64,000 nucleotides of DNA from a virus (IMGVR_UViG_3300033463_000001:83298-147297), one strand, 5' to 3'; positions 1,563 to 61,138 are shown, numbered from the stretch's first letter. Translations and numbers: made by a program. The notes: generated from the letters alone by a model not told the origin.

Positions 1563-2879
1563 ATGAATACTACTGTTACATTAGAAGAAGCTAAACGTGG
1601 CACTAACATGTTTATCTCGGCAAAGAACAACAAAACGCTATCAATCGTCGAGAGTACACTTTCACAAATTGGCAATGGCGCATATGCAAAGGATAACAAG
1701 ACTTTGTATTTGCATGTTAGCCCGGCACAAGGTAAAACTCTGAAAGAATCACTGCTGTTTGCGTTGGAACAAAATGGTGTTAACACAGCAAACGTAAAGA
1801 TTTCTAGAATGACAACGAACGAATCACCGTTGACTCGTTTCGCTCTCAAAGAGGGTGTTGTGGCTCCTTCTCGCGATAATGCTAATACGAAACGCATCCG
1901 TCTTACACGCGAAGGATTGAGTCGTCTTGTTACAAAGGCAGTGAATGAGGCATTGAGTAAGCGCGACCCGAAACTCGCGTCGCTTCCGTTTGACCAACAA
2001 GTTTCAATCTTGACCAATGAGGCAAGAAAGCACATGATACAGGAGGGTACTAGCAATTTCTTCCTTATCAACTCAGATACATACCACGCACTACCAGAGC
2101 CGGAAGACGAAAATGGTAATCGGAAAGAATGGGATGATGTGGATTATGACTTCGCTATTGAGGATGTTCGTGAAACATTCCTGAGTAACGGATGGGATAC
2201 GTGCGACAAAGATAAACGTTATTCGTACGACTCTTATTCTATAGGTGTCGACAAAACATGCGAACCGGAGAGCTTTGAGACGCCAATCTACATCATCGTG
2301 CTGGTTTGTCCGGGATACTATGAGTCTGCAACTATCGACTACGAAATCGTATGCGACTTTATGAAGCTGTCAGACTTCAACAGCATCGAGGAGTTTGCTG
2401 CTGAGTGTGTTGAATGGTGTGGTTCTTCTGAAACTGATGAGGATAAACAAAAAGAAATCGCAGAGGTTGTAGCAAGTATAAATGCAGGCATTGCTAACTT
2501 CGAAGAGGTAGTAGAAAAATGCACGGTTCCGTATGGTGTTTATGCTCGTTTTAGTAACGGTGAAACAATGTATAAAAACCTGCGCGAAGAGGATGTTGAG
2601 CATGGAGCTACCGATGAGAATGAAGATATATACAGTTACTCGTATTTTGCTAGCGAATTAGCAAAATTTGGATGGTCATTCCATGACTCATATGTTGACG
2701 ACAACGACGGTAGTGTTATCTTCGCAATCGACAAAGACAGACCCGAAGGAGTTGAGCTTGACGAATTGAAAGCTAAACTTCGCGAGATATACGGTAATAA
2801 TATAAAGTTTGGAACTCGTACAGCAGTACAGGCACCAGAACTAAAATCAACTGTTGTTAAACTGATTTATGCCGACTAA
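1563..2879 (+). CDS. Hypothetical multi-domain protein, putative internal head (cargo) protein
   Basis: 438 aa; late box upstream; internal IRLTREGLSRLVTKAVNE motif; several h-x-E sites. Confidence 0.55.
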   Translation: MNTTVTLEEAKRGTNMFISAKNNKTLSIVESTLSQIGNGAYAKDNKTLYLHVSPAQGKTLKESLLFALEQNGVNTANVKISRMTTNESPLTRFALKEGVVAPSRDNANTKRIRLTREGLSRLVTKAVNEALSKRDPKLASLPFDQQVSILTNEARKHMIQEGTSNFFLINSDTYHALPEPEDENGNRKEWDDVDYDFAIEDVRETFLSNGWDTCDKDKRYSYDSYSIGVDKTCEPESFETPIYIIVLVCPGYYESATIDYEIVCDFMKLSDFNSIEEFAAECVEWCGSSETDEDKQKEIAEVVASINAGIANFEEVVEKCTVPYGVYARFSNGETMYKNLREEDVEHGATDENEDIYSYSYFASELAKFGWSFHDSYVDDNDGSVIFAIDKDRPEGVELDELKAKLREIYGNNIKFGTRTAVQAPELKSTVVKLIYAD

Positions 2880-3849
2880 CCAATACGACATAATAAAAAG
2901 AGTTGTCGACGAGGCGCTTGTGCATGTTTTACACGAAGACTGCGGAGGTGCCACGACGACTTTCTTTGTTGGTGGAGAGGGTGGATTTGCATACGATAAA
3001 AACGCATTACCACAAACAAAAGACCCGGCATACGTCCATCGCAAAAAAGGTGGTATAGCATGTGACAGAATTGATTCCGGAAAGACAACTGTAGAGGAGT
3101 CCACAATACCACTAAAAGACGTGGTGGATAAATACTATCAAGATGCAGATGAACAGGGAATTATTGCTGCACTTGATTTAGACCCAACGTCACCAACTGG
3201 TGCACAATTTAAGCGTACTCCGGACGGAGAGATGGTACTTGACATAGAAGCATCTAAGAAAGGTAGATTTTTCGCTTGGATAATGAAAAACTACGAAATC
3301 TACTGTGACGATATGATGTGGTGGGAGGACGACCTTAAAGATGCCTTGAGTAAATTCGTAAAAGCGTGCCAGGTGAACTATGACGGTATTGACAGGGATA
3401 TTAACAAATATTCAATTCCAGGTCTCATAGACACCATGTTCGCTATCGACCCTTCTGATTTACAAACTAAGAGCGAACGCTGTGAACAGTTTAAAACGCT
3501 ATACGAGGATGACGAATGGGTTATCTACAAACCACTAACTCATGATGCAGCGCGCTTCCTTGGACACGGTTCACGTTGGTGCACTTCAGCCGGTGATAAC
3601 GGAATCCATAAAGGTACGGAATCATTCAACGCATACGCAGAACAAGGCGGTATATACATCAACATGGATAAACGGACAGATGCGCTTTATCAATTTAATT
3701 TCACATTTGGTGAATATCGCGACTCAGAAAATACAGAAATCATCCCTAACGAACGTGATTTCACAAAGATAGCGCAAAAAATAGGCATGCCAGAAGGTGC
3801 ATTCCAATGGTACATGAATAACATTACAGAACTGCAGAGTTCGAAATGA
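2869..3849 (+). CDS. Hypothetical protein with C-terminal PcfJ-like (WCT motif) domain
   Basis: WVIYKPLTHDAARFLGHGSRWCTSA...FNAY...YQFNF; N-terminal IIKRVVDEALVHVLHE. Confidence 0.5.
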   Translation: MPTNQYDIIKRVVDEALVHVLHEDCGGATTTFFVGGEGGFAYDKNALPQTKDPAYVHRKKGGIACDRIDSGKTTVEESTIPLKDVVDKYYQDADEQGIIAALDLDPTSPTGAQFKRTPDGEMVLDIEASKKGRFFAWIMKNYEIYCDDMMWWEDDLKDALSKFVKACQVNYDGIDRDINKYSIPGLIDTMFAIDPSDLQTKSERCEQFKTLYEDDEWVIYKPLTHDAARFLGHGSRWCTSAGDNGIHKGTESFNAYAEQGGIYINMDKRTDALYQFNFTFGEYRDSENTEIIPNERDFTKIAQKIGMPEGAFQWYMNNITELQSSK

Positions 3850-3881
3850 AATAACTATTAAACAAATAAACAAACAAGAAT

Positions 3882-4364
3882 ATGGAACAGACGAAAATCG
3901 TACGCCTTACTGAAGAGGAGTTTGTAGGCGTTATCAAAGAATCAGTAATGGAGATTCTTGCAGAGAATGGTGTTGCCTTGAACGAAGACTTCTTCGACAA
4001 CCTAAAGAGCGGTGCAAGGGCTTTCTTCGGAAAAGGACCTGGTGATAATAACGCCACATCCAAAGCTGCTCGCACTCAGTCTGGAGGCCTGAACCTTAAA
4101 AAGCGTTTCGACGCAGCAAAAACTGGTTTTGAGATGCGTAAACAAGGTGACGAAATTGGGCAGGTTGTTCAATTCCTGAAAGATTTGGTTGCAAAGAAAG
4201 AGCTTGACCCATCGTTCACTATCGCCCAGTTGATTGGTGGCAAGTTGAATGGTAACAAGTTTGGTGTTCTTGACGCAATGAAAAACAACCGTTCTGCGCA
4301 AGCTTCGAGGGCAATCAACAAAATCTACCCGAAAGTAGAAAAACAAGCAGCTCCTCAAGCGTAA
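3882..4364 (+). CDS. Hypothetical basic protein, putative internal head protein
   Basis: N-terminal KIVRLTEEEFVGVIKESVMEILAE motif. Confidence 0.55.
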   Translation: MEQTKIVRLTEEEFVGVIKESVMEILAENGVALNEDFFDNLKSGARAFFGKGPGDNNATSKAARTQSGGLNLKKRFDAAKTGFEMRKQGDEIGQVVQFLKDLVAKKELDPSFTIAQLIGGKLNGNKFGVLDAMKNNRSAQASRAINKIYPKVEKQAAPQA

Positions 4365-4385
4365 TCTTACGCTTACTAACGAATG

Positions 4386-4418
4386 AACCGGATGGCTGGA
4401 TTTCCAACTCATCCGGTT
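4386..4418. terminator. Hairpin between convergent genes
   Basis: aaccggatg...catccggtt stem followed by a T-run. Confidence 0.5.
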
Positions 4419-4810
4419 TTTCTTTTCTTATCTGGGAGGTATTTGATGTGTGGATACGTACTTTGGATACCCAACTTATATTTTTTATTGAGGACAGTTT
4501 TAGCTATCCAAAACAGCCCACAATGTTGGAATGAACCACCAATTGGCTCTATTGTTGAATAGACATAGTAGTGAATCATTTCATGCACAAGAACGCTACG
4601 GAATGATTCTTCATCGAAATCCACATTGTAAGCGATAAATATGGTAGCGTCATAAAGTTTATGCGTTTCCTTATCGCGCTTACATTTAAACATGCCAACA
4701 TCCTGGAACCCATCAATTAGACGGAATTTTGGCATCTCTAGTGTGTCTCTGAAATAAAGGTGATTATACTCTTTGAATTTATCCCTTAATAATCTGATTG
4801 TAACGTCCAT
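4409..4810 (-). CDS. SprT-like zinc metalloprotease
   Basis: YNHLYF...VLVHEMIH...H.GLF (HExxH plus distal His). Confidence 0.8.
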   Translation of the reverse strand: MDVTIRLLRDKFKEYNHLYFRDTLEMPKFRLIDGFQDVGMFKCKRDKETHKLYDATIFIAYNVDFDEESFRSVLVHEMIHYYVYSTIEPIGGSFQHCGLFWIAKTVLNKKYKLGIQSTYPHIKYLPDKKRKTG

Positions 4811-5880: not shown

Positions 5881-6969
5881 TCACTTTTTCATTTGCTCAA
5901 CTCTCGCATGAGCAACCTTATTCACAATCTCATTGATTTCTTTCTGAGATAGATAATAGGTTTTCTGCTCTGTTACAGGCTCAAGAACGATTGCCTTTGC
6001 CGCATTTTGGATGACATGGGACAACTCACCCCACTGGATGTACGGGAACTCTTTCACAATCTCAGTGTTAATCCATGTAACAGGTTCAACGCTACCATCC
6101 GGGTGACGTACAGTTGCAACGATGTACAGGATGTTGCTCATCAAGAACTGTTTATTAACAAGGTTCCTGTATGAGTTCAAATCGCTCATTTCTGCCTTGA
6201 ACGATGCCTCCTCCTCGGACACTTCAGCAACCGCCTTATCAACGGCCGGCTTGCCAAAGGAGCCAATCAAGAACTTCATCATTTCCTTATCAAGCTTTTC
6301 AAGCTCACCGTTTTCGTCAGCGAAATACCATTGGCTGCTCTGAAGGTTCTTACTATCTGATGCAAGATTCTGACGGGCAGCAATCTTATTTGCGTCATCT
6401 ATATTTGCATAGAATCCACCACCGAGGTAGTTCTGATATTTTGAACCATTGTTTGCATATCGAGGGTCAGTTACCCTACGCTCTCCGGTTCCACCATAGT
6501 TATGACGCCAGTCGTCGTCTTTATACTCACTAGCATCTTTGCCGAACCCATGACGGCGCCTAATGTCGAGCTCCTGATTGGTTGCGTTTTCGAAATCTTT
6601 TGCAAGACTCTTGTCGTCGCGCCAGTTAATTTTGTAGCTACCAATTTTTACAATGTGACCATCACCGATATCAAACGGAGTGGTCGCCCTTGACCCTGCT
6701 AGCGCCTGTTGGTATTTCTCGCTATCACGAACCTTGCCAAGTGCCTGGCCGAATTTCGTTTGACCATTGGCGTATGTGCCAAGTTTCTCGTCGTTGTCCT
6801 TGTTGACATACTTCTGAGTCTTAGAGCCATACTTAAACGTGTGGGATGAGAGGCTGTTAGAGTCCTCGATGTACCCAAGGTGAACGAATTGGCCGGGGAT
6901 AATTTCGTTGGTGTTGAAATTCCATTGGCCAGTCAAAATCGTGCGTTCTTTTGCTTCTTCTAGTGTCAT
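5881..6969 (-). CDS. Hypothetical protein, putative internal head protein
   Basis: 362 aa; late box at 6994-7000(-); starts MTLEEAK; C-terminal YYLSQKEINEIVNKV motif. Confidence 0.55.
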   Translation of the reverse strand: MTLEEAKERTILTGQWNFNTNEIIPGQFVHLGYIEDSNSLSSHTFKYGSKTQKYVNKDNDEKLGTYANGQTKFGQALGKVRDSEKYQQALAGSRATTPFDIGDGHIVKIGSYKINWRDDKSLAKDFENATNQELDIRRRHGFGKDASEYKDDDWRHNYGGTGERRVTDPRYANNGSKYQNYLGGGFYANIDDANKIAARQNLASDSKNLQSSQWYFADENGELEKLDKEMMKFLIGSFGKPAVDKAVAEVSEEEASFKAEMSDLNSYRNLVNKQFLMSNILYIVATVRHPDGSVEPVTWINTEIVKEFPYIQWGELSHVIQNAAKAIVLEPVTEQKTYYLSQKEINEIVNKVAHARVEQMKK

Positions 6970-9849: not shown

Positions 9850-9876
9850 TATTTATTGGTAGTAATTAGCACAAAA

Positions 9877-10494
9877 ATGATTTTAACAGAAAACGACTGG
9901 AAGACGATATCCGAGCGAGTGGTGAATCGAATCAACGAATCAATGAGTCGCGACGACATCATGCGTGCCGTTGAGCGTCTTAGCAGGTCACAAGGTAAAT
10001 ATGGACGCCTGCTGCAATTCTTGAACAGCGGCTCAGAGGATGCAGAACTTGTACTGCAAGACCTTGAAGACCAATGTTTCCCTGATGTTGTGTCGATGGT
10101 TATGTATATTGAAGAGAGTAAAAAGGCAACAAAAGGCCAACAGCTCACAGAAGCGAGTACCATTGATGTGAACCAAGGCATATGGGATGAGTATGATATC
10201 CCATGGAACGAAGTTGATGATGAACCGGAGAGGTACAATGGTATTTGGTATATCTCTGTAGAGTTCTTCGATTATACAGCATTCCTTGGTGAAATTGATA
10301 TCGATAGACAGTTCGGTACTCTTAAAGACTGTTTGGATTTTGCACAAACAATCGATAGAGAAATGATATTTGATATTTGCAATGAAGAAATCTCAGACGA
10401 AGGATTTACGTCAATTTCATTGAACATCAACTGTCAGGAAGAGCGCGCTACATATGAAGTAGCAAATACAAAGCTTTTCGTACCGAATAAGTAA
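9877..10494 (+). CDS. Hypothetical acidic protein, putative internal head protein
   Basis: ATG 9877 follows late box 9850-9856; MILTENDWKTISERVVNRINES. Confidence 0.55.
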   Translation: MILTENDWKTISERVVNRINESMSRDDIMRAVERLSRSQGKYGRLLQFLNSGSEDAELVLQDLEDQCFPDVVSMVMYIEESKKATKGQQLTEASTIDVNQGIWDEYDIPWNEVDDEPERYNGIWYISVEFFDYTAFLGEIDIDRQFGTLKDCLDFAQTIDREMIFDICNEEISDEGFTSISLNINCQEERATYEVANTKLFVPNK

Positions 10495-10533: not shown

Positions 10534-10826
10534 TCTTTCTCACTTTCTTGCGCTTTCTCAATCGACATCTTCAATTGTTCTTCCGAAACGACGCCTATCA
10601 GTTTCAATAGGACTTCATCATCGTTATCGTCCGGAAGCATAACAAGCGTAGGTATGTTCTTGATTTCGTACTTACTGACTAATTCATCAGTTTTTTCGTC
10701 GTCGATATCAAACTCTGTAAAGGATACTTTTTTGAAACCATCCCAGGAAGCTCGCAACGACTCAATACGTTTTGCCAATTCCGAACACGGCTGGCACCAT
10801 ATTGCCGAAAATTTCAGGATTCTCAT
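10518..10826 (-). CDS. Thioredoxin
   Basis: FSAIWCQPC, IKNIPTL. Confidence 0.9.
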   Translation of the reverse strand: MRILKFSAIWCQPCSELAKRIESLRASWDGFKKVSFTEFDIDDEKTDELVSKYEIKNIPTLVMLPDDNDDEVLLKLIGVVSEEQLKMSIEKAQESEKEKREV

Positions 10827-11536
10827 TGAACAAGCGAGTTTTTCTGCAAATCCGCAACCCAGTTATTCAAGAAAGCATTAAAATCTCCGGAGCGCATCTT
10901 CTCTGCTTTGAACGCATCAAACAGGTTACGCATTTCCTGGCCTTGCTTTGTGAATATCTCCTCACCATCCTTACTCTTTACAGAAATAAAGTTCTCATCG
11001 TCGTCTATGAATACACTTCCGTTCTCTAAGTCGTATTGGCCACTGATTGACTCTGCACCGATACTCTCTTTGAGGATATGCTCATACTCGCTACCAACGA
11101 CGCGTTTGAACGTACTTTCGCTGACAATCACCTCACGCGGAGTATGTTTCTTCTGAACGTTTTCGTTTTTCGTCATGTCGCAAAGGTAGATACAAACATT
11201 CAACTCATGAATGAATCCTTCAACAACACTTCGTACACCGATATACTTAGCATCAGAGATGTGACCATAGTATTGATATACGTCTTGCAAAAGTTCTGCT
11301 AAGAACTCGTTGAGCTTTATTGCCTTCGGAAGCTCTTCCTTAATATCACCCGGTTGGATTTTTCCGTATAGAGTCTGCAGCTCTTCTGCAAGAGAGTCCT
11401 CGAAACCGTATAGTTTATCTGTTACGTCATCACAGAGTTTATGCAAACTCATGTTAGAAGCATCCCAATGGAGCTCTTTAATCCTAATTTTGTAACCTGC
11501 AAGCTTATTCAAAAGCTTAGATGCGTTTTCTTCCAT
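10823..11536 (-). CDS. Ferritin/Dps-like four-helix protein with extra C-terminal domain
   Basis: ELHW...LHKLCDD...EDSLAEE; ATG 11536 follows late box 11560-11566(-). Confidence 0.65.
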   Translation of the reverse strand: MEENASKLLNKLAGYKIRIKELHWDASNMSLHKLCDDVTDKLYGFEDSLAEELQTLYGKIQPGDIKEELPKAIKLNEFLAELLQDVYQYYGHISDAKYIGVRSVVEGFIHELNVCIYLCDMTKNENVQKKHTPREVIVSESTFKRVVGSEYEHILKESIGAESISGQYDLENGSVFIDDDENFISVKSKDGEEIFTKQGQEMRNLFDAFKAEKMRSGDFNAFLNNWVADLQKNSLVQ

Positions 11537-11559
11537 TTTTTGAAATTGTTTATCTTTAA

Positions 11560-11584
11560 ATAAATAGTCTTTCGGTGTATTTAT
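11560..11584. promoter_or_regulatory. Back-to-back TATTTAT boxes driving divergent genes
   Basis: ATAAATA at 11560-11566 and TATTTAT at 11578-11584. Confidence 0.7.
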
Positions 11585-11601
11585 AGGTGACAACATTTGC
11601 T

Positions 11602-11937
11602 ATGAGAGAAGTAGTTATCACACAACATCAATATAACGCTTTGCTTAACGAGGCTGTATCTATGCTTCCGGAGCGTGTTAAACAGATAGTAGCCGCCTTA
11701 GACTCGAATTTCATGGTCAATAGAGACAAGAATTCGCAGGATTATGGGGCTGTGTATCGTATTGATTCTAGTGGACGCGCTATCGCTAAAGTTGATGATG
11801 TTGAAGTATTTTACAAACTACAGGGACTTTGTCAAACTATTGCAGATAAGGCAACCAGAGATAGCCTTCTTAAAAAAGTCATAAAGGACTGGTATGCCGG
11901 CTCAATTAAAGGCTCTCTGATGTCTGTTGCTCTTTAA
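11602..11937 (+). CDS. Hypothetical protein, putative internal head protein
   Basis: MREVVITQHQYNALLNEA. Confidence 0.55.
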   Translation: MREVVITQHQYNALLNEAVSMLPERVKQIVAALDSNFMVNRDKNSQDYGAVYRIDSSGRAIAKVDDVEVFYKLQGLCQTIADKATRDSLLKKVIKDWYAGSIKGSLMSVAL

Positions 11938-14946: not shown

Positions 14947-15780
14947 ATGTACGATAAAGAATTTATGCATATTGATGAAGATACTACGTGTATCACTAAG
15001 GGAGGTAAACTAAACGAAAACATAATCGACGATAGTGTTGACGTGGACGATATCAATATGTCGTCCTTCAAAATTAAAGACGGCCTAAACGGACTTATTT
15101 GGGGTAGTACTGGTATACGCCCCAAAGTTCGTATTCGTCTTTTACAAATCGCACAAGATTTCTGGGACGAAGTTGAAATCAAGTGGGTTGACCCGATAGA
15201 CGTTATCGTTACCGGTTCAATAGCAAACTACAACTGGTCTAGATTCTCAGACATAGACCTTCATCTAATAGTTGATTTCTCACAAATAGGCGAACGTGCA
15301 GACCTTGTTAAGGAACTCATGGATGCTAAGAAGAATATATGGAATAGCAAACATGACGAGCTTAAAATTAATGGTTTTAACGTAGAGTTATACGTACAGG
15401 ACATTAACGAAACGGTTGACGCGACAGGTATTTATTCTTTGTACCGCAACAAATGGCTGCGCAAGCCATCACGCTCCGTATTCCTGTCAAAGAAAGTTGA
15501 CGATGATGACGTCAGGAGAATGGCTGCTCATTTTATCAATGATATCGATGACCTTTCTGAGGATTTGAATGATGCGGTAAGCGCACTGGATATAGAGGAT
15601 GTTTCTAAACGCATCTATCTTCTTTATGATAAGATTCGTCAAATGCGCAAAAGCTACTTACAAAAAGAAGGTGAGTTTTCTCTCGGCGATAAAGTCTATA
15701 AGGTTCTAAGGCGCGCAGGCTACCTTGAAAAACTGATTGATTTGAAGTCTAAAAGCTACGACAAAGTAATGTCAATATGA
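14947..15780 (+). CDS. Pol-beta-superfamily nucleotidyltransferase
   Basis: TGSIANYNWSRFSDIDLH (GS...DxD), VELYVQD; late box at 14920-14926. Confidence 0.8.
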   Translation: MYDKEFMHIDEDTTCITKGGKLNENIIDDSVDVDDINMSSFKIKDGLNGLIWGSTGIRPKVRIRLLQIAQDFWDEVEIKWVDPIDVIVTGSIANYNWSRFSDIDLHLIVDFSQIGERADLVKELMDAKKNIWNSKHDELKINGFNVELYVQDINETVDATGIYSLYRNKWLRKPSRSVFLSKKVDDDDVRRMAAHFINDIDDLSEDLNDAVSALDIEDVSKRIYLLYDKIRQMRKSYLQKEGEFSLGDKVYKVLRRAGYLEKLIDLKSKSYDKVMSI

Positions 15781-15879
15781 CTTTTTCGTTAAAATAGAGT
15801 ATTTATTGATAGTACAGACTGTCTTTTCGTGTCATGTACACAATAGAAACATTGATTAAGCAAATAAACATTTCTAGAA

Positions 15880-17151: not shown

Positions 17152-17180
17152 TCGGTCTTTAACACCTCTATTCTAATTCG

Positions 17181-17215
17181 CAAAGCACAGTTTCACGCTG
17201 TGCTTTGTTGTTTAT
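17181..17215 (+). terminator. Intrinsic terminator
   Basis: caaagcacag/ctgtgctttg stem and T-rich tail. Confidence 0.65.
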
Positions 17216-17256
17216 TCTATAAACGAGTATTTATAGTTAGTAAATAGTATACTGCG

Positions 17257-17892
17257 ATGACACAGAAATCATATGTAATCACAGCCGGTGAGATACGGGA
17301 ACAAATGCAAGAAAGCCTAAATAGGATGATTGCAGAAAGAAATGTCATTAAAGTTCCTGGTGTTCAGCAACCTCCTGTGAATATACCACAAGAGCCAGCA
17401 GCTCCTGCTCCGGCCGAATCTTTACCGCAACCTGATGCTAATGCTGCAATAGACGATGCTGTGAATCAGCCTCAGTTTGATGCAGGTGTTGAGGCAGACC
17501 CGGATACCGACCACAAAAAATATCTCCAACAGTTAACTGGTAAGCTTTCAACCGAGTTGCAAAAGTTTGTTAACGAAAATCCGAATGAAGCAAAGGAGAT
17601 ATGCAAATATATCCTTGGTATGATTGTCAAACAAGCAAGCAAGCCGCTCGATGACGCCGATAAGAAAGAAATTATTAAGAAAATCAACTCAGTAGAAGCA
17701 GGTGATGAGAGCGGCGAACAAGCTGAGCCTGGCGCACAGCAGCAGGAAATAAACCTCCCTCCTGTAGGTGAATCGGTTATTAAAGAGACTTTGCTTGATA
17801 CGAATCAACCGGAGCCCAAATCTGAAAGGCAAGACCAAAAGCAGAGAACAGCACCAACTGCTAAGAATAGACCATACAAACCAAAATTTTAA
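17257..17892 (+). CDS. Hypothetical head-associated protein
   Basis: KSYVITAGEIREQMQESLNRMIAE; late box at 17228-17234. Confidence 0.55.
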   Translation: MTQKSYVITAGEIREQMQESLNRMIAERNVIKVPGVQQPPVNIPQEPAAPAPAESLPQPDANAAIDDAVNQPQFDAGVEADPDTDHKKYLQQLTGKLSTELQKFVNENPNEAKEICKYILGMIVKQASKPLDDADKKEIIKKINSVEAGDESGEQAEPGAQQQEINLPPVGESVIKETLLDTNQPEPKSERQDQKQRTAPTAKNRPYKPKF

Positions 17893-17893
17893 C

Positions 17894-18298
17894 ATGGCAC
17901 AGATAATCTTTATAAACGAAGACGATAGTACAAAAGTATCAGGCAATGTTACCTCAAATAATGGTAACCAAGCGTCTTTATGGAGTAATCTCAAAAAGAC
18001 TATGCAAAACCCGGCCGTTGATAGTGTAAAGGTAGATGGTGATTCTTTGGTGAAGCCGGCCGAAGCGCAAAAAGACGGAGCAGTACACATTCAAGCATCA
18101 AATGGTGCTGATGCAGAACAAGCTATTCGGAAAAACGTACTCGGTAATCCGGATATCAAACGTGCCGTTGAAAACGGTACTGATGTTATCGTTGATAAAA
18201 CAAACGAGTCGAAAGATACGAAGAAACGTGTGGTTAATGAAAACAACTCATTTACCATTTCTAAAGACTTATTTACAAGGTACACATTGTGGAAATAA
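17894..18298 (+). CDS. Hypothetical protein
   Basis: ATG 17894 lies 1 nt after the upstream stop; MAQIIFINE. Confidence 0.55.
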   Translation: MAQIIFINEDDSTKVSGNVTSNNGNQASLWSNLKKTMQNPAVDSVKVDGDSLVKPAEAQKDGAVHIQASNGADAEQAIRKNVLGNPDIKRAVENGTDVIVDKTNESKDTKKRVVNENNSFTISKDLFTRYTLWK

Positions 18299-29479: not shown

Positions 29480-30181
29480 ATGGCTCAGAAGAAACTACAG
29501 GAAATAAAGAAAGGTGAAACCGGAACCGGTCTCTTAATTGAGAACGACGGTTATATCTCTGTTGACTTTGGTAACAACAAAGCCATTTGCGAAGGTATTA
29601 CAAAAGATGGTGGCTGGAATGTTCCAAATCCATTCATCCTGGATACTGTCTTCCAAAAGTATGACATCAAGAATGCTAATGGCCGTATATATCCGAAAGA
29701 AGTCCTGCAGCGCGAGGTTGATAAATATCAACAAAAAATTCGTGAGCGCAGGGCCACAGCAGAAGCAGACCACCCAAGCGAGACAACCATTAGCCTACGT
29801 GGAATTTGCTTAAACGTTGAGGAATTACACTGGGAAGGACAAACGCTTTGTGGAAAAATCAGACTTCTAACGAGTGAGGGATTTAGACGATACGGTGTTA
29901 TCAGTAATCAAGGCGACCAGGTAGCAAACCTCATTCTTTCTGGAATCAAAATTGGCGTATCATCGCGTGGCGTTGGTTCGGTCGAACAGAAGTACGGCCA
30001 AACAATCGTTGGTAATGATTATGAATTGATTTGTTTCGATGCCGTAACAGAACCGAGCACGCCGAATGCGTGGATTATGACTGAACCGGAAACAGAAAAG
30101 CAAGCATATGTGGAAAGTAAGCAATCCAAAGACTCTATTTTGGCAGAAAAAATCAACAAAATGGAGCTAATCCTACTTTAA
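29480..30181 (+). CDS. Prohead core protease (T4 gp21-like)
   Basis: NANGRIYP, EADHP, IGVSSRGVGS, FDAVTEPSTPNA. Confidence 0.93.
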   Translation: MAQKKLQEIKKGETGTGLLIENDGYISVDFGNNKAICEGITKDGGWNVPNPFILDTVFQKYDIKNANGRIYPKEVLQREVDKYQQKIRERRATAEADHPSETTISLRGICLNVEELHWEGQTLCGKIRLLTSEGFRRYGVISNQGDQVANLILSGIKIGVSSRGVGSVEQKYGQTIVGNDYELICFDAVTEPSTPNAWIMTEPETEKQAYVESKQSKDSILAEKINKMELILL

Positions 30182-30285
30182 TTCATAAAAATTATGCAGG
30201 AAAATTGCTTTTTTCATTGTGTTAGCATATTTATAGGTAGATAACGGTATGCCTAAGTATACCTAATTACTGAATAAGAAAGATT

Positions 30286-31614
30286 GTGACGAACATGAAT
30301 TTGAGACCGGAAGTTGTCAAAAAGTCTTTGGACGCAGTAGACAACATGAAAAAGGAAATAAACGAAAACACATCTGCTGTGCTGAAGAAGCTGCTCTCTG
30401 AGGCTGTTAAGGCAGACGTTGCTGCGGTTGACAATGAGGATACACCCTCAGATGTCAATACCGACGGCAGCAAGGTGGAAGGTACTACTGACTCCGGCAA
30501 GACAAATGATGAGCAATCGAAAGAAGAGGCTACGCAGACACCTGACGAGAATCAGGATGGCGACACCAACACAGAAGATTGGTCTGAATTTGATTCCTTT
30601 AAGGGGGAAGATGGGAAGTACGACCTTACAAATGCAAGTGACGAAGACGTCGTTAGAGTGTTTAAAAAAATGGACAATACCGATAAGCTACGCATCGTGC
30701 AGGACGGCGATAAGGTAGAAATCCATGACGGAGATACTGGAGCAGATTATATCATCGACTTGGGAGAAGAAGTAAGCAACAACCCAATTCAAAAAGAAAA
30801 CACCAATAAAAGTATGAGTAATACCAAATTACAAACTATTTATGAAGTTGCTTTGGGTTATACTGATTCATACCAAAGCAAAGATGCAATGACAACTCCT
30901 CCGAACACGGAAGTTGCACCGAACCAGCATCGCGATTTGAACGCTGGCATTCCTACCGGAAGCGAAAAGCCTTGGGCTAAACCTAACAAAACTGCAAAGC
31001 CGTTCGATAACAAGCAAAATGTAACCGAAGAGGCAAGCGGCAGTGTAATTGAGGATGAGGCTCAGGTAGAAGAAGTTGCAGCACACGCATCAGTTAAGTC
31101 AACTACGGTTGTTAAGAGCGACCCGACGAACCCGCAAGGACGTCCTCACCGTGGTACCAAACCTGCAGGTGCTGTACAGACAGAAGGTAAGAAATTCGCT
31201 GTTACAGAGGCTCAGCTCGCGAAGATTCAGAAAATCTTTGAGGAGAACGAAAGCCTGAAGAAATCGCTTGTGAAGTTCCGCAATGAACTCAATGAGGCTG
31301 TTGTTACTAACGTGGCCACCACACTTGCGCTCAAGACCATCCTTGAGAACACGACTACAGAGAATGAAAAGAAAGACATTGTCAATCGTTTCAAGACTGA
31401 AGCTAAGTCCATCGATGGCGCAAAGGCACTGTATGAGAGCATTAGCCGTGAGTTGAAAAAGACTCCTGCTGACAATCTCGCCGAGAGCATCAACCAAAAG
31501 ATTGTGGCCGGCAGTTCTGCACAACAGATTAACGAAGCCAAGGAGCAAGCACTGCAAGCAGAAAATGAAAGCATTGCTCGCATCCAGGACATGATGCACA
31601 GGGTTTGTAAGTAA
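30286..31614 (+). CDS. Prohead core/scaffold protein (gp22-like)
   Basis: Acidic coiled-coil protein between protease and MCP; late box at 30228-30234; start may be ATG 30295. Confidence 0.75.
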   Translation: MTNMNLRPEVVKKSLDAVDNMKKEINENTSAVLKKLLSEAVKADVAAVDNEDTPSDVNTDGSKVEGTTDSGKTNDEQSKEEATQTPDENQDGDTNTEDWSEFDSFKGEDGKYDLTNASDEDVVRVFKKMDNTDKLRIVQDGDKVEIHDGDTGADYIIDLGEEVSNNPIQKENTNKSMSNTKLQTIYEVALGYTDSYQSKDAMTTPPNTEVAPNQHRDLNAGIPTGSEKPWAKPNKTAKPFDNKQNVTEEASGSVIEDEAQVEEVAAHASVKSTTVVKSDPTNPQGRPHRGTKPAGAVQTEGKKFAVTEAQLAKIQKIFEENESLKKSLVKFRNELNEAVVTNVATTLALKTILENTTTENEKKDIVNRFKTEAKSIDGAKALYESISRELKKTPADNLAESINQKIVAGSSAQQINEAKEQALQAENESIARIQDMMHRVCK

Positions 31615-31652: not shown

Positions 31653-33440
31653 ATGAATACATTTCTTCAATCCGGCCTGTTCGGCAACATGGAGCTCGAC
31701 CAGGCAAAGAAAATGCGTGAAGCCATCACCGAACGTTGGGACAAGTTTGGCTTCTGCGAAGGTTTGAGCGGTGTCATCAAAGAGAACATCTGCCAAATCT
31801 ATGAGAACGAGGCTAAGCACCTCATCAAGGAGGCTACTAACTCCGCTAGCTCTGGCTCATTCGAGACTGTAGTATTCCCGATGATTCGCCGTGTCTTCAG
31901 CAAGCTGTTGGCAAACGACATCGTGTCTGTACAGGCCATGAACCTGCCTATCGGTAAGGTATTCTTCATCCTTCCTGTTACATCGAAACGTGAGGAAGTT
32001 CAAGAGGGCGTATTCGAGCACGCTGGTCTTATGGGCTACAACCGTAAGGACAAAAACCAGAACGGTGCTGACACTCCCCGCTACTACCTCCCGGATGACG
32101 TTGTAAACCAGGGTGCTAAGCTCGTACAATTCTATGAGACGACTCTGTACGACCTCTACTACAATGACTTCCTTTATGACGAGTCTAAGGGTCGCGTAAC
32201 CATCGCCCTCGGTTCTGTTACTCCGGTTACTCTGGAGAAGAAACAATTCAAGCCGATTGCGAACACAGCTGACATCAAGACAGCTAACGACGGTACTGTT
32301 CACAGCCTGATGCTGGAGGTTAGTGGCTTCAATAGCTACAACGCTGGTAAGCTGACTGGTCCTGACGGTAACGAGATGGACACTGAGGAGTTCCTCGCTT
32401 CTATGAAGGTTTGGACACCGTCTGCAATCACAGCTGTTAGCGGTAGTGCAGCTTTCGAGGTTGGCGAAGAGATTCCGATGCACGTAATGACCCAGAAGTA
32501 CGGTAAGGGTATTGTTGAATACAATGCACCGGTTGACGTAAACGGTAAAATGTTTATCGAAATCGACCTTACAAAGCCTGGTAAGGGTGAGGAAGGTTAC
32601 GTAGGTGTTGACAAGGCTCAGTTGGCTAGCGTTCTCGCAGCTCTGAAGATTTCTTGGAAGCGATATGACAGCCTTGAGCTTGAGACCGAAATCGGTGAGG
32701 TTTCATTCAAACTTGACTCTATGGAGGTATCTGTTGTTCCGCGTAAGCTGCGTGCAACTTGGTCTCCGGAGCTTAGCCAGGACGTTGCTGCTTTCCACAA
32801 CATCGACGCTGAGGCTGAGTTGACCCAAATGCTTTCTGAGCAGGTAGCAGGTGAAATTGACCGTGAAATTCTTCGTGACCTCCGTAAGGTTGCTCCTTGG
32901 CAAGGTCGTTGGGATAGGAACGGTTGGAGGCGCCTTGAGGCATTCTCTACCAACTATACCCAGAAAGACTGGAATCAAGAGCTGATGACCGTTATCAACG
33001 AGATTTCTGCAATGATTCACAAAGCTACCCTGCGTGGCGGTGCGAACTACATTGTAGTATCTACAGAGGTTAGCGCTCTTCTGAACAACCTTGAGTACTT
33101 CCATGTAACTGACGCTAGCGCTGAGCAAGACCAGTACAACATGGGTATCGAGCGTATCGGTTCACTCCAGGGACGTTATCAGGTATATGTTGACCCGTAT
33201 GCACCTCACTGGTCTATCATCGTAGGTCACAAGGGTAAATCATTGCTCGACACAGGTTATATCTACGCTCCGTACGTACCTATGGCTCTGACCCCGACAA
33301 TGTATAATCCAGAGAACTTCGCTCCGGTTAAGGGCATTATGACAAGGTATGCGAAGAAGTGCGTAAACAACCGTTACTTCGGACACGTACGTGTAGACGG
33401 TCTCCGTATCTACGGTCACGGAACTCAATCGTTCCGTTAA
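31653..33440 (+). CDS. Major capsid protein (T4 gp23-like)
   Basis: FPMIRRVF, VSVQAMNLP, RKLRATWSPELSQD, AGEIDREI, YIYAPYVP, GIMTRY. Confidence 0.95.
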   Translation: MNTFLQSGLFGNMELDQAKKMREAITERWDKFGFCEGLSGVIKENICQIYENEAKHLIKEATNSASSGSFETVVFPMIRRVFSKLLANDIVSVQAMNLPIGKVFFILPVTSKREEVQEGVFEHAGLMGYNRKDKNQNGADTPRYYLPDDVVNQGAKLVQFYETTLYDLYYNDFLYDESKGRVTIALGSVTPVTLEKKQFKPIANTADIKTANDGTVHSLMLEVSGFNSYNAGKLTGPDGNEMDTEEFLASMKVWTPSAITAVSGSAAFEVGEEIPMHVMTQKYGKGIVEYNAPVDVNGKMFIEIDLTKPGKGEEGYVGVDKAQLASVLAALKISWKRYDSLELETEIGEVSFKLDSMEVSVVPRKLRATWSPELSQDVAAFHNIDAEAELTQMLSEQVAGEIDREILRDLRKVAPWQGRWDRNGWRRLEAFSTNYTQKDWNQELMTVINEISAMIHKATLRGGANYIVVSTEVSALLNNLEYFHVTDASAEQDQYNMGIERIGSLQGRYQVYVDPYAPHWSIIVGHKGKSLLDTGYIYAPYVPMALTPTMYNPENFAPVKGIMTRYAKKCVNNRYFGHVRVDGLRIYGHGTQSFR

Positions 33441-36727: not shown

Positions 36728-37483
36728 ATGTCTAAAACAACAAAACAAGAAGAAAAAAAGTACGAGCTCACGCACTCGCAGTTGAAAAATATTGTGAGAG
36801 AGGGTATCAAACGTTACAAACTCGCTGAGGCAAACGACCAATTCGAGCAAGAGTGTCGTGCTGAGGCTGACGAGCTCATTCAATCTTTCGAGCCGGAAGC
36901 AACGAAAATTGAGGTAGGCGATGAGTGGTTCTCTGTTCAATTGAGCAATAAGGACGAAGCACATCCGTTTAAGGTATGGATGGATATCAGCATCCGTGAC
37001 AATGACGTATATGTAGACTGGAACCAATACATCTTCCACCTTAACAACAGCGATGACGTTGTGCGCAAGATGTTCCAGGAAGACACAAGTATGTTCGAAG
37101 CCTGCGATTCAGAGGCTGTCTGGGCACTTGAGAACGGTGGATACATCTACCAAGATGACAACGCCAACTGGCACCGTACAGAGAAAAAAGACACTCCTGC
37201 TGCAGAAGGCAGTGAAACAACACCTGAGGTTAAAACCGAAGAGGTAGCAGCTGCTCCTTCAGAACCTAGCAATCCTGGCATTATGACCGGTGGCGGTGCG
37301 CCGAAGAATGAAGACCCGGCAGAGAAAGAGTTTATCCGCACAAAATGCCGCGAGTTTGCAAAACAAAACATCTGGCCACACTTCATTGCATACAACATGG
37401 AAACAGGAGAGGCTATTCCGTGTAGCAACTATGCAACAGCAGCAACATACAAAGCAAAAGGTATGAAAATTGCCGCACTGTAA
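36728..37483 (+). CDS. Hypothetical protein, putative internal head protein
   Basis: KKYELTHSQLKNIVREGIKRYKLAE. Confidence 0.55.
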   Translation: MSKTTKQEEKKYELTHSQLKNIVREGIKRYKLAEANDQFEQECRAEADELIQSFEPEATKIEVGDEWFSVQLSNKDEAHPFKVWMDISIRDNDVYVDWNQYIFHLNNSDDVVRKMFQEDTSMFEACDSEAVWALENGGYIYQDDNANWHRTEKKDTPAAEGSETTPEVKTEEVAAAPSEPSNPGIMTGGGAPKNEDPAEKEFIRTKCREFAKQNIWPHFIAYNMETGEAIPCSNYATAATYKAKGMKIAAL

Positions 37484-50555: not shown

Positions 50556-51392
50556 TTATTGTTTCTCGCAGTACTGCTTTGTTATCAACGATAACTTATC
50601 CTGCACATTGTGTAGTTCTTCTCTAATCCTATCAGGCTCTTTCCAACCGTCAATCCAATCCTCCTGTCTGAGCAACCATGCAATTCTGTCTCGCGCTAAA
50701 CCAACAGCTGAGTCTGCAAGGCTTGAATTGGTGAATAATTCTTCTTTTAAATTTTCGACAAATAAAATCAAATTGCCGATTGCATAGTACACATTAGAAG
50801 GGTCTTCTCCGGAAATCCTATTGCACAGTGCACGTAATAGCTCTGTAACCAGTTCATATTTTAAGTCAAAGGCTCCGTCGCTATCCATTGGCTTATATCC
50901 AGCAGTGCCTTCACTCATAATATTGTTTAATGCGCGCAATGATTCTGTGTTAATCTGTTTTCCGTTTACACCGACAACGCGAGACGGTGATTTGCTTACA
51001 TGGACACCGTTATTTTTTACACGTGTGTCAGTTTTAATTTTATTGAGTTCGTCATGCACGCTACTACGCATTGTAGCAAGTGTCGTATCAACCCAATTCT
51101 TCATCGGAAGGCCGCCGTTCAAGATAAATTCAATATCATTTTGTTTTCCGGTATATGTGTCAAAAAAGTTTTTGATGCGCTTCAACTCATTGTATTTGAC
51201 ACAAGGCCTGCCGATTTCTTTCTGATTATTGATGTTGTTATACTCCGGGTATAGGATATGTTTAATCCTCTTATAACCATCCGATGTTTTGTATTGGTCA
51301 TAAGAAAGCAGCACCTGGGAAAGGTGTTTCACAAGTTCCGTTGGCAAAAACACCACCAGGCCGTTTAACAGTTGGTTTTCAATAATCAGCAT
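50556..51392 (-). CDS. Two-domain hypothetical protein, C-terminus DUF4259-like
   Basis: YNELKRIKNFFD...LNGG.PMKNWV; then IMSE-GTAGYKPMDSDGAFD. Confidence 0.5.
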   Translation of the reverse strand: MLIIENQLLNGLVVFLPTELVKHLSQVLLSYDQYKTSDGYKRIKHILYPEYNNINNQKEIGRPCVKYNELKRIKNFFDTYTGKQNDIEFILNGGLPMKNWVDTTLATMRSSVHDELNKIKTDTRVKNNGVHVSKSPSRVVGVNGKQINTESLRALNNIMSEGTAGYKPMDSDGAFDLKYELVTELLRALCNRISGEDPSNVYYAIGNLILFVENLKEELFTNSSLADSAVGLARDRIAWLLRQEDWIDGWKEPDRIREELHNVQDKLSLITKQYCEKQ

Positions 51393-51649
51393 TACTTAAC
51401 TGTACCTCTAAAGTTTCTACCTCTCATAAAATCAAACGGTTGCGGAACCATGTTCTTAGCAATATCATCCGTGGTAGGACCTGCCTCTATCTCAGCATTG
51501 CCATCTTTACCGGTTGTTTGTTGAGTGGTTCGAACGTCAGCATTTCCAGGATACTCCTTTTGGTCGCCATCCAGTTCAATAGACTCGGCACGCAAAGTAT
51601 CAAGCATCCTATTATATTGCGATTCTGTGATAAGTACCGTAATTTCCAT
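51392..51649 (-). CDS. Small hypothetical protein, putative internal head protein
   Basis: MEITVLITESQYNRMLDTLRAE; late box at 51670-51676(-). Confidence 0.55.
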   Translation of the reverse strand: MEITVLITESQYNRMLDTLRAESIELDGDQKEYPGNADVRTTQQTTGKDGNAEIEAGPTTDDIAKNMVPQPFDFMRGRNFRGTVK

Positions 51650-51669
51650 TTTATATCGTATATCTAGCA

Positions 51670-58887: not shown

Positions 58888-58901
58888 AAACACGAATCTC
58901 A

Positions 58902-60035: not shown

Positions 60036-60036
60036 T

Positions 60037-60420
60037 ATGCAGACATTCCATATCAATCAAAATAGCACACTACCTTACCTCATCGTCGCACTCATCGATG
60101 ATGGCCGGTATGATTTTGGGCGCTTTAACGAATGCATCCAAGACGCGACAATTACCTTCGACATGTCACGATTGGATAACGGTAATGTGCGAGTAGCAAA
60201 GGCCACTTGTGAAATACGACGTATAAGCGATAAAACCTGCAACGAGAACTACTGCATCGTTTACAAGTGGAAAGAGCGCGATACGCGAGAGAAAGGTGCA
60301 TACATTGGTGTATTCACTATTAACTTCCACGGCAATATAACAAATGGAGATGGTGTTGAGTATCCTGTCGGAAAACTCATAGCACCAATCAAGGAAAAAA
60401 TTGTAATCAACATCGACTAA
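60037..60420 (+). CDS. BppU-like Ig-fold structural protein
   Basis: FHINQNSTLP, YKWKERDT..KGAYIGVF. Confidence 0.55.
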   Translation: MQTFHINQNSTLPYLIVALIDDGRYDFGRFNECIQDATITFDMSRLDNGNVRVAKATCEIRRISDKTCNENYCIVYKWKERDTREKGAYIGVFTINFHGNITNGDGVEYPVGKLIAPIKEKIVINID

Positions 60421-60421
60421 A

Positions 60422-61138
60422 ATGGATAACGAGAAACGAAAAATCACAGCTAAGGAGCTGAATGAAATGATTGAACAACGCACAAAAGAGCTTGTTGCGG
60501 AAAATAACAAAGCACGTGCGCCAAAAAGTATTGAAGAGGCACACGTTGAGTTTATGGTAGAGAAGGCATTGCGTAAATTGTCGGTTGAACAACCTAAGAA
60601 GACCACTATCGAGGAGATTGTACGTCGTAAACTCGAAGAGAAAGCAAATGCTGAACGTACTCTCAACAGGCATGAGGATACAGGCTATGTAATCGTTAGT
60701 GCCGAGAGGAAAGATGCAACTCCGGAAGAAAACAAAGCTAACACAAACAAGTTGGCAAGTGAGATTCAATCCAACAATTTATCCTTCAAAAAGGTATATG
60801 GTGGCTACGTAAATGACTTTGGTACAGGTCAGCAGACCCAAGAGGAATCGTTTATGATTTTCCCGTTCACAACAACCGGTGCTCAGTTTGATTTTGAGTC
60901 ATTGAAACAATTCGCAATTCAACTCTGCGGTAAATATGGTCAAGAATGCGTTTTGGCAAAGATACCAGATGGTGACGTTGTATACTACAAAGCTGACGGA
61001 ACAATCGACATGAATCTTGGCAAAGACGTTAAATTCAACGATAAAGACCAGGAATATTTCACGAATTTCCACAAGTTGAGTAATCCTGATAAGGTCAAAC
61101 CTGATGGAAGGCCAACAAGGTTTACTTACGGAGGTTAA
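60422..61138 (+). CDS. Hypothetical protein (DUF3293-like C-terminal domain), putative head cargo
   Basis: KRKITAKELNEMIEQRTKELVAE; IVSAER...EENKAN..L...VYGGY...EESF...KYGQECVL. Confidence 0.55.
   Translation: MDNEKRKITAKELNEMIEQRTKELVAENNKARAPKSIEEAHVEFMVEKALRKLSVEQPKKTTIEEIVRRKLEEKANAERTLNRHEDTGYVIVSAERKDATPEENKANTNKLASEIQSNNLSFKKVYGGYVNDFGTGQQTQEESFMIFPFTTTGAQFDFESLKQFAIQLCGKYGQECVLAKIPDGDVVYYKADGTIDMNLGKDVKFNDKDQEYFTNFHKLSNPDKVKPDGRPTRFTYGG

What the first reader, a model, noticed from the sequence alone, without database searches (positions are those of the whole stretch)
1563..61138. Candidate capsid-cargo targeting system: about 15 unrelated late proteins share one amphipathic tag ending in a prohead-protease-type site
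Seen: proteins with unrelated bodies carry the same short strand+helix peptide. N-terminal copies: 3882 KIVRLTEEEFVGVIKESVMEILAE, 7993 KFTQELLDEMVARSLEKYRIKE, 9877 MILTENDWKTISERVVNRINE, 11602 EVVITQHQYNALLNE, 17257 YVITAGEIREQMQESLNRMIAE, 18289 IIITEEQAKRL, 36728 YELTHSQLKNIVREGIKRYKLAE, 51649 VLITESQYNRMLDTLRAE, 60422 KITAKELNEMIEQRTKELVAE. Internal copies: 1563 IRLTREGLSRLVTKAVNE and the ferritin-like gene VIVSESTFKRVV...ILKE. C-terminal copy: 5881-6969 YYLSQKEINEIVNKV. Partial copies: 2869, 50180, 57958. The scaffold has FAVTEAQLAKIQKIFEE. All these genes lie behind a TATTTAT box or in such an operon, and I saw no copy in the polymerase, helicases or glycosyltransferases. Known: T4 internal proteins use a 10-aa capsid-targeting sequence removed by gp21 after L/I-x-E. 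Inference: this is a different, position-independent tag that co-assembles with the scaffold and loads many effectors into the head for injection.
Basis: partly seen in the sequence, partly recalled or inferred. Interest (0 to 1): 0.9.

Follow-up and report, generated by a model that had tools for sequence, protein, structure and literature searches.

The report
Capsid-loading tag on jumbo-phage proteins
A 327-kb uncultured T4-like jumbo phage and its relatives put the same ~25-residue leader, ending in a head-protease-type cut site, on many unrelated proteins (one is an ArdA anti-restriction protein), most likely to load them into the capsid as phage T4 does with its internal proteins, but this is untested.

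Summary
The shared peptide is real, but fewer copies hold up than the ~15 claimed. A profile built only from related phages finds four copies in the window that no shuffled proteome matches: genes 3882, 9877, 36728, and one internal copy in 1563. It finds two more elsewhere in the genome. Three to four further copies (11602, 51649, 60422, perhaps 17257) form a diverged sub-variant. The copies claimed in 7993, 2869, 50180, 57958, 5881, the ferritin-like gene and scaffold residue 304 score no better than chance.

The tag is clade-wide. It heads 110 ORFs from 54 unrelated body families near the capsid gene of 52 related phages. Complete relatives carry 8-17 copies per genome. It occurs in 5,696 protein clusters of a 1.84-billion-protein library. 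No Pfam family, source name or paper covers it.

All 92 non-redundant tags end in hydrophobic-x-Glu, mostly [IV][IL][KNR]E. The capsid protein's predicted maturation site has the same signature. The phage has a gp21-type protease and a scaffold. Conservation is at the protein level.

My best reading (about 0.65) is a new, longer, sequence-unrelated analogue of T4's capsid targeting sequence. Loading, cleavage and injection are inferred, not shown. Unchecked first-reader notes of this scan report the same tag on other DNA.

The parts
3882..4364 (+). 160-aa orphan protein with the strongest tag in the window. The tag is residues 5-29 (nt 3894-3968) and ends in ILAE.
   Evidence: 24.5 bits with the relatives-only profile, none in shuffles. 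Six-frame E = 6.2e-6. No Pfam or PHROG family.
9877..10494 (+). 205-aa orphan protein whose tag starts at the Met (nt 9877-9939) and ends in INE. The longer TTG-9856 ORF call overlaps the promoter box, so ATG 9877 is the likelier start.
   Evidence: 16.7 bits. E = 0.0011 in six frames. Box at 9850.
36728..37483 (+). 251-aa orphan protein, two genes downstream of the capsid gene. The tag is residues 10-34 (nt 36755-36829) and ends in LAE.
   Evidence: 15.1 bits. E = 2e-4. No family and no Atlas lead.
1563..2879 (+). 438-aa orphan protein with a genuine internal tag at residues 109-129 (nt 1887-1949), ending in VNE. There is no in-frame Met just before it.
   Evidence: 13.6 bits. E = 1.1e-4 in six frames. 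Only itself among 5.8 billion proteins.
11602..11937 (+). Small protein with a plausible diverged, short-form tag at nt 11602-11652, ending in LNE.
   Evidence: Relatives' profile about 0 bits. Leave-one-out among weak copies 10.3 bits, none in shuffles. Box directly upstream.
51392..51652 (-). 86-aa protein, read from the internal Met, with a plausible diverged tag at nt 51652-51587, ending in RAE.
   Evidence: 4.2 bits with the relatives' profile. 11.3 bits leave-one-out. Box about 25 nt upstream of this Met.
60422..61138 (+). 238-aa protein with a plausible diverged tag at residues 7-27 (nt 60440-60502, ending in VAE), followed by an S-adenosylmethionine lyase domain at residues 90-215.
   Evidence: PF23780, 6.6e-14, 52 bits, above the cutoff of 28. 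Tag 1.2 bits with the relatives' profile, 10.6-10.8 bits leave-one-out. The one homologue found in a relative has no tag.
17257..17892 (+). 211-aa conserved head-module protein with a weak tag-like N-terminus at nt 17272-17337, ending in IAE.
   Evidence: 7.5 bits leave-one-out among weak copies. 1.9 bits or less otherwise. Its homologues in L033 and L034 lack the tag.
29480..30181 (+). gp21-type prohead protease, the presumed enzyme that removes the tag. It carries LLIE at residues 18-21 and ILAE at residues 220-223, which are candidate autoprocessing sites.
   Evidence: phrog_207 head maturation protease, 1.1e-41. Motif positions. The N-terminal site is conserved in relatives.
30286..31614 (+). 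Scaffold (gp22-position) protein. Its N-terminal ~55-residue domain ends in a conserved h-h-x-E followed by an acidic tract in relatives.
   Evidence: Synteny and 77 homologues. Alignment A3. No significant profile similarity to the tag. The claimed copy at residue 304 is not supported.
31653..33440 (+). T4 gp23-type major capsid protein. It has conserved VIKE (residues 41-44, nt 31773-31784) and LIKE (residues 57-60, nt 31821-31832) just before the mature N-arm. These are the predicted maturation sites and have the same signature as the tag ends.
   Evidence: tblastn to capsid genes. Residue 70 aligns with residue 26 of mature T4 gp23*. The sites are conserved in relatives.
30228..30241 (+). 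Example of the extended TATTTAT promoter-like box, here in front of the scaffold gene. Further + strand copies start at 1472, 7963, 9850, 14920, 17228, 23399 and 57932.
   Evidence: Intergenic enrichment and association with tagged genes.

Best explanation
The peptide is a capsid (prohead-core) targeting propeptide. It is built from a basic start (Met-Lys-Lys), a three-residue beta-strand, a Thr/Glu helix cap and an amphipathic helix of about 18 residues. In a shorter form the helix has 10-14 residues. The helix stops at [IV][IL]-x-Glu and is followed by a Gly/Asp/Asn/Ser-rich linker.

Tagged proteins are made from late, TATTTAT-type promoters. The tag is proposed to dock them onto the scaffold core, or onto the inner capsid surface, while the prohead assembles. 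The gp21-type protease (29480-30181) is proposed to cut after the Glu, as it cuts the capsid protein at LIKE/VIKE. The freed bodies would stay in the head and enter the cell with the DNA. Cargo would include an ArdA anti-restriction protein and probably a SAM lyase, so they would act before any phage gene is expressed.

Shown here: the tag, its spread, its protein-level conservation, its invariable h-x-E end, the matching capsid site, the protease and scaffold genes, and the cargo domains.

Inferred: docking, cleavage, retention in the head, and injection.
For: 1. A relatives-only profile finds 117 ORFs at 8 bits or more in 80 capsid loci, against 0 in shuffles. 110 are N-terminal. They fall into 54 body families that BLAST does not link.
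2. Copies per genome: 5 robust in this phage, 8-17 in complete relatives.
3. 5,696 clusters at E <= 1e-3 in 1.84 billion representatives.
4. 92 of 92 non-redundant tags have h-x-E at T+10, T+14 or T+18, against 38% at control positions. The commonest endings are IIKE, ILKE and ILRE.
5. The capsid protein keeps L-[IL]-x-E about 10 residues before the segment that aligns with residue 26 of mature T4 gp23*.
6. The protease is phrog_207 at 1e-41.
7. In relatives the tagged genes pile up 3-8 kb upstream of the capsid gene, inside the head module. From memory of the T4 gene map, that is where T4 has gp67 and gp68.
8. Selection is on the peptide. 52% of identical residues use different codons, and the conserved Leu uses all six codons.
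9. Cargo: ArdA (PF07275, 1.1e-31) starts 10 residues after the tag's Glu. A SAM lyase follows a plausible tag.
10. Precedent: T-even internal proteins are diverse defence proteins that share only a CTS (PMC3012670). T4-type and giant-phage proteases all cut after Glu (PMC5694885).
Against: - There are no proteomic, expression or cleavage data for any of these uncultured phages.
- The h-h-x-E end could simply be part of the amphipathic helix pattern.
- The tag shows no significant similarity to the scaffold, so the docking partner is unknown.
- The SAM-lyase homologue in a relative has no tag.
- The tagged bodies have no charge bias, unlike T4's basic internal proteins.
- Nearly all bodies have no known function, so 'effectors' rests on two proteins.
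- The AlphaFold model of the ArdA protein is of low confidence, with mean pLDDT 42.
- An earlier case in this scan (e1-127136) showed that a shared leader can be an enzyme recognition site instead of a capsid signal.
Confidence: 0.65

Rival explanations
1. The tagged proteins are head-assembly parts, not delivered cargo. In this reading they are small prohead-core proteins like T4 gp67 and gp68. They are built into the core through the tag and then degraded or expelled by the protease.
For: Most tagged ORFs are small, with a median body of about 105 residues. In relatives they sit in the head module just upstream of the protease gene. Nearly all have no enzymatic domain.
Against: There are 54 unrelated, rapidly changing body families, and the bodies in this phage are orphans. 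That does not fit conserved assembly parts. ArdA and SAM-lyase bodies have no assembly role. Tagged genes are also scattered far from the head module.
Confidence: 0.15
2. The peptide is a shared handle for some partner other than the capsid. It could be a recognition leader for a modifying enzyme or chaperone, a common oligomerisation or beta-strand-plus-helix docking piece, or a sorting signal for another compartment or for the tail.
For: Shared leaders on unrelated phage proteins have other explanations elsewhere (scan note e1-127136). Strand-plus-helix starts resemble ribbon-helix-helix N-termini (my own knowledge). No partner has been identified here.
Against: The tag always ends in the protease-type motif that also marks the capsid protein's maturation site. 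Tagged genes cluster inside the head module. After the tag comes an unconserved linker rather than a second helix, so it is not a ribbon-helix-helix domain. The peptide is charged and amphipathic, so it is not a secretion signal.
Confidence: 0.15
3. The resemblance is a chance or generic similarity of amphipathic N-terminal helices.
For: The loose pattern is hardly enriched.
Against: Zero hits in shuffled or reversed proteomes at the scores of the robust copies. 5,696 database clusters carry it. Column conservation reaches 83-90% at the Leu-Thr-Glu core.
Confidence: 0.03

Closest known systems
Phage T4 capsid targeting sequence (CTS) of internal proteins IPI-III and Alt, removed by prohead protease gp21 (Mullaney and Black 1996, as cited in PMC5694885, PMC9958956 and PMC3012670)
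   Same: A short N-terminal peptide is shared by otherwise unrelated, fast-evolving proteins. It ends in a hydrophobic-x-Glu protease site. The phage has a gp21-type protease, a gp22-position scaffold and a gp23-type capsid protein. Some cargo counters restriction.
   Different: There is no sequence similarity to T4's tag. This tag is about 25 residues (or about 17-21 in the short form) against about 10. It has a defined strand plus capped helix. Copies number up to 17 per genome, against a handful in T4. Internal, tandem and C-terminal copies exist. The hosts are uncultured rumen/gut-type jumbo phages. Nothing is tested experimentally.
Propeptides of ejection and inner-head proteins of giant phages phiKZ, 201phi2-1 and SPN3US (PMC5694885, PMC7411985, PMC10052503)
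   Same: Jumbo phages load many proteins into the head, and a gp21-related protease trims them after Glu.
   Different: Those propeptides are mostly over 100 residues, share no common sequence and are cut at A/S/G-x-E. Here there is one short, conserved, portable tag with [IV][IL]-x-E.
Phage P1 Dar antirestriction system and the N-terminal capsid targeting signal of DarB (PMC9024508)
   Same: Anti-restriction proteins are pre-packed in the capsid through an N-terminal signal and delivered with the DNA.
   Different: P1 uses stepwise protein-protein loading of a few large proteins. It has no separate scaffold and no shared cleavable tag on many proteins.

Membership tests
T4-type capsid targeting sequence system | One short peptide is shared by proteins with unrelated bodies. 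| tested here: met
   54 body families among 110 tagged ORFs. The window's own bodies are alike only in the tag.
T4-type capsid targeting sequence system | The peptide ends in the prohead protease's cleavage motif (hydrophobic-x-Glu). | tested here: met
   92 of 92 tags, against 38% at control positions. The same signature sits at the capsid protein's predicted maturation site.
T4-type capsid targeting sequence system | The phage encodes a gp21-family protease, a scaffold core and a gp23-type capsid protein. | tested here: met
   phrog_207 at 1.1e-41. Scaffold by synteny and homologues. Capsid protein matches T4 gp23 structures at 3e-27.
T4-type capsid targeting sequence system | Sequence homology to the T4 CTS itself. 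| tested here: not met
   The consensus shares nothing with T4's 10-residue tag beyond the h-x-E end. The T4 sequence is recalled from my own knowledge. A 35-residue tag query finds no GenBank phage record.
T4-type capsid targeting sequence system | The peptide is sufficient for encapsidation and is removed in the head. | not testable with these tools
   This needs virion proteomics or reporter fusions in a cultured member.
Giant-phage (phiKZ/SPN3US) ejection-protein propeptides | Long (>100 aa), non-shared propeptides cut at A/S/G-x-E. | tested here: not met
   The tag is about 25 residues, shared, and ends mostly in [IV][IL][KNR]E. Family features are taken from PMC5694885.
Ribbon-helix-helix DNA-binding domains (considered as a rival) | A strand, helix A, a turn and helix B of about 45 residues, conserved as one domain. 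| tested here: not met
   Conservation stops at the Glu, about 18 residues after the Thr. A variable Gly/Asp/Asn-rich linker follows. No Pfam family hits the tag.

The most novel reading that the evidence does not exclude
A sequence-defined, portable capsid-loading tag marks thousands of protein families in uncultured gut and rumen jumbo phages. A simple profile would then list the proteins these phages inject with their DNA. That list would include pre-packed anti-restriction proteins (ArdA, SAM lyase) and multi-tag chains that the head protease cuts into separate cargo.
Probability: 0.5. Interest if true: 0.75.

Novelty: new variant of a known kind. Interest (0 to 1): 0.64.

Why it matters
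If the tag does load proteins into the head, one 30-position profile would identify the injected proteome of a large, uncultured phage clade. The tag occurs in 5,696 clusters, nearly all of unknown function. This set is a likely reservoir of anti-defence and host-takeover proteins that act before transcription starts. An ArdA carried in the virion would be a new delivery route for a classical anti-restriction protein. A well-defined cleavable tag could also serve for loading foreign proteins into phages of Bacteroidota-type hosts, as the T4 CTS has for E. coli. The host assignment comes from earlier scan notes and was not checked here.

Tried and rejected
1. The loose regular expression for the motif is not informative: 62 hits against 49 in shuffles.
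2. Megablast of 23 kb against GenBank phages found no match. tblastn of a 35-residue tag against GenBank phages also found none. The query was short and the low-complexity filter was on, so that result is weak.
3. I tested the idea that the tag copies part of the scaffold. Weak profile hits (2-6.6 bits) fall at scaffold residues 30-55. hhalign of tag alignment A1 against scaffold N-terminus alignment A3 gives 5% probability. The idea is rejected as unsupported. Only the terminal h-h-x-E is shared.
4. I tested whether an upstream cut site flanks internal tags. 49 of 111 have one, against 34% in controls, which is not convincing.
5. I looked for homologues that would show a tag on the SAM lyase or ArdA in relatives. 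One untagged SAM-lyase homologue was found, and no ArdA.
6. Body function of 36728 and 9877 by ESM Atlas gave no usable hit. For 1563, a locus scan and a protein search found only the protein itself.
7. The single-sequence AlphaFold model of the ArdA protein has mean pLDDT 42. Its strand 9-11 and helix 13-34 agree with the strand-plus-helix reading but carry little weight.
8. The bodies show no charge bias.
I repeated it from the files.
11. The cultured Flavobacterium phage immuto has no tag at E <= 0.1.
Full report
CONTEXT. The window is bases 83298-147297 of a 327,393-bp virus record. It holds a T4-type head module:
- large terminase, 19465-21336, and portal, 21394-23394;
- a gp21-type prohead protease, 29480-30181 (phrog_207, 1.1e-41);
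- a scaffold-position gene, 30286-31614;
- a gp23-type major capsid protein, 31653-33440. tblastn finds capsid genes of T4-like phages, and phmmer matches T4 gp23 structures at 3e-27.

Megablast against GenBank phages finds no close relative. IMG/VR holds 315 related capsid loci. I kept 80 of them, with 50-66% capsid identity and many from contigs of 200-410 kb.

It found 97 N-terminal hits at 4 bits or more, against 0.4 in shuffles.

From those hits I built a relatives-only profile of 43 non-redundant tags (alignment A1). In the relatives it hits 117 ORFs at 8 bits or more, with none in shuffles. Of these, 110 lie in the first 45 residues.

Run back on this phage, the relatives-only profile gives six hits at 10 bits or more. 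None at 8 bits or more appeared in 20 shuffled or one reversed proteome. The six are window genes 3882, 9877, 36728, the internal copy in 1563, and two genes outside the window. A six-frame search that does not depend on my gene calls gives the same four window sites plus one outside at E <= 0.0012.

Genes 11602, 51649 and 60422 are not recognised by the relatives' profile. They do predict one another in leave-one-out tests, at over 10 bits, with nothing comparable in shuffles or in other proteins. Gene 17257 reaches 7.5 bits. Their bodies are unrelated.

The copies in 7993, 2869, 50180, 57958, the 5881 C-terminus, the ferritin-like gene and scaffold residue 304 are at chance level. The look-alike in 58902 belongs to a conserved structural body.

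ANATOMY OF THE TAG (92 non-redundant copies):
- Met, then Lys-Lys.
- A hydrophobic strand (I/V, I, R/K, L).
- Thr (86%) and Glu (90%), which read as a helix N-cap.
- Hydrophobic residues at +4, +7/+8, +11/+12 and +15/+16, which form one face of a helix.
- Glu at +18 (48% of copies), +14 (21%) or +10 (10%), always preceded by a hydrophobic residue two positions earlier.
- A Gly/Asp/Asn/Ser/Pro-rich stretch with no conservation.

All 92 tags have h-x-E in that interval, against 38% at control positions. The commonest endings are IIKE, ILKE, ILRE and IINE.

Conservation is at the protein level. The conserved Leu uses all six codons, the Ser uses both codon families, and 52% of identical residues are encoded by different codons. 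This argues against an RNA or recombination signal.

SPREAD. The 110 N-terminally tagged ORFs fall into 54 body families that BLAST cannot link. Six-frame counts per genome are 5 robust copies here and 8, 16 and 17 in three complete relatives. There are weaker matches in a 484-kb uncultured phage in GenBank, and none in the cultured Flavobacterium phage immuto.

Against 1.84 billion cluster representatives, the 30-position profile finds 5,696 proteins at E <= 1e-3 and 75 at E <= 1e-10.

Many of the best hits carry two tags. In the 150 listed, 138 tags are N-terminal and 111 are internal or C-terminal, but this list is biased towards multi-tag proteins. Examples are chains of tag, body, tag, body, often with the second tag still preceded by a Met. 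Two C-terminal copies occur near relatives' capsid genes.

So the tag is overwhelmingly N-terminal but not exclusively so, and the internal copy in 1563 has precedents.

No Pfam family covers the tag. The sources name these proteins 'hypothetical' or not at all. No paper in the library contains four characteristic strings of the tag.

LINK TO THE HEAD AND THE PROTEASE.

First, the capsid protein keeps two conserved sites, VIKE (residues 41-44) and LIKE (residues 57-60). Relatives have L-[IL]-x-E at the second site. Residue 70 aligns with residue 26 of the mature T4 gp23* chain. The sites therefore lie where T4 removes its propeptide, and the second has the same signature as the tag ends.

Second, the protease itself carries LLIE near its N-terminus (conserved) and ILAE ten residues from its C-terminus. 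Related proteases autoprocess (PMC5694885). T4-type, phiKZ-type and SPN3US proteases all cut after Glu (PMC5694885).

Third, in relatives the tagged genes concentrate 3-8 kb upstream of the capsid gene, inside the head module and just before the protease gene. From memory of the T4 gene map, gp67 and gp68 sit in that position in T4.

Fourth, the genes lie behind a promoter-like box. TATTTAT is strongly intergenic: 48 of 99 copies fall in 11% of the sequence. Its extended form sits 25-30 nt before starts, including those of the scaffold gene and of genes next to the portal. It lies directly upstream of 6 of 12 tagged genes against 37 of 369 others, p = 8e-4. Most other tagged genes are downstream in such operons. 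That the box is a late promoter is an inference from the genes it precedes.

CARGO. Most bodies are dark matter. Two are informative.
- The robustly tagged protein at genome 285963-286751 is an ArdA anti-restriction protein (PF07275, 1.1e-31). Its domain begins ten residues after the tag's Glu.
- Window gene 60422 joins a plausible tag to an S-adenosylmethionine lyase domain (PF23780, 6.6e-14). From my own knowledge this is the T3 SAMase type of anti-restriction enzyme. Its only homologue found in relatives lacks the tag, although it follows a TATTTAT box.

Another tagged protein carries DUF6926.

[quoted passage not shown] It also fits P1, which packs anti-restriction proteins through an N-terminal signal (PMC9024508).

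MECHANISM AND ITS STATUS. I read the tag as a T4-like capsid targeting propeptide. It would dock on the assembling core, be cut after the terminal Glu by the gp21-type protease, and leave its body in the head to enter the cell with the DNA.

Shown: the tag, its statistics, its end motif, the matching capsid site, the enzymes present, the synteny and the cargo domains.

Inferred: docking, cleavage, retention and injection.

The docking partner is unknown. The attractive idea that the tag copies the scaffold's N-terminal helix failed a profile-profile test.

RIVALS.
- The proteins are disposable core parts rather than cargo (0.15).
- The tag is a handle for another partner (0.15). An earlier case in this scan turned out that way (e1-127136).
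- Chance, which is refuted for the robust copies but is the best reading of the unsupported ones.

COMPARISON AND NOVELTY. This works like the T4 CTS and meets three of its defining features. It is not homologous to it: it is longer, structured, far more numerous per genome, and also occurs internally and in tandem. It differs from the long, non-shared propeptides of phiKZ-like phages. I found it in no family database and no paper. I class it as a new variant of a known kind.

Earlier notes of this scan report comparable tag systems in other T4-like phages. They also report this very tag on another genome, as an unchecked first-reader note. Those notes served as leads, not as evidence.

Noticed in passing
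G000:C1:285963-286751 (outside the window; locus L091:64-852:+): A 262-aa protein joins a robust tag (residues 7-30) to an ArdA anti-restriction domain (residues 40-197). An ArdA apparently meant for the virion is unusual.
   Followed up: partly
window 60422-61138 (+): An S-adenosylmethionine lyase domain (PF23780) is the last gene of an operon of structural-looking genes (57958, 58902, 60037). It is a candidate anti-restriction or anti-BREX enzyme.
   Followed up: partly
window + strand at 1472, 7963, 9850, 14920, 17228, 23399, 30228, 57932, and genome-wide: An extended promoter-like box (G-TATTTAT-w-G-k-TAG) lies 25-30 nt before start codons. It differs from the host-type early promoters noted earlier for this genome and is probably the late promoter.
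   Followed up: partly
database proteins P0001-P0150, for example P0003, P0017, P0084: These are chains with two to four tags. The internal tags are often still preceded by Met-Asn-Lys-Lys, as if neighbouring tagged genes had fused. A recurrent ~170-residue body of unknown function occurs in P0010, P0024, P0047 and P0084.
   Followed up: partly
window 14947-19455 (+): Four genes (14947, 15880, 17257, 18289) keep their order in relatives, where they lie directly upstream of the protease. They are conserved head-module proteins of unknown role. Some orthologues carry tag-like starts.
   Followed up: partly
window 33570-35234 (+): A homing or HNH endonuclease gene (phrog_3339, 2.5e-85) sits directly after the major capsid gene.
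   Followed up: no
window 30286-30450 (+) and alignment A3: The scaffold's N-terminal ~55-residue domain ends in a conserved h-h-x-E, followed by a long acidic tract in all relatives. This is probably a protease site that frees the domain.
   Followed up: partly
G000:C1:154605-155006, 155756-156142, 260463-260822: Three small proteins share a different N-terminal motif (N-N-F/Y-T-T-x-E-Q-x-K-R-L-L-E-L-G). They form a separate paralogue family, not the tag.
   Followed up: no
window 10823-11596 (-): A Dps/ferritin-like protein (weak PHROG hits) has a ~120-residue C-terminal extension that its homologue in a relative lacks. The tag claimed in the extension is not supported.
   Followed up: partly
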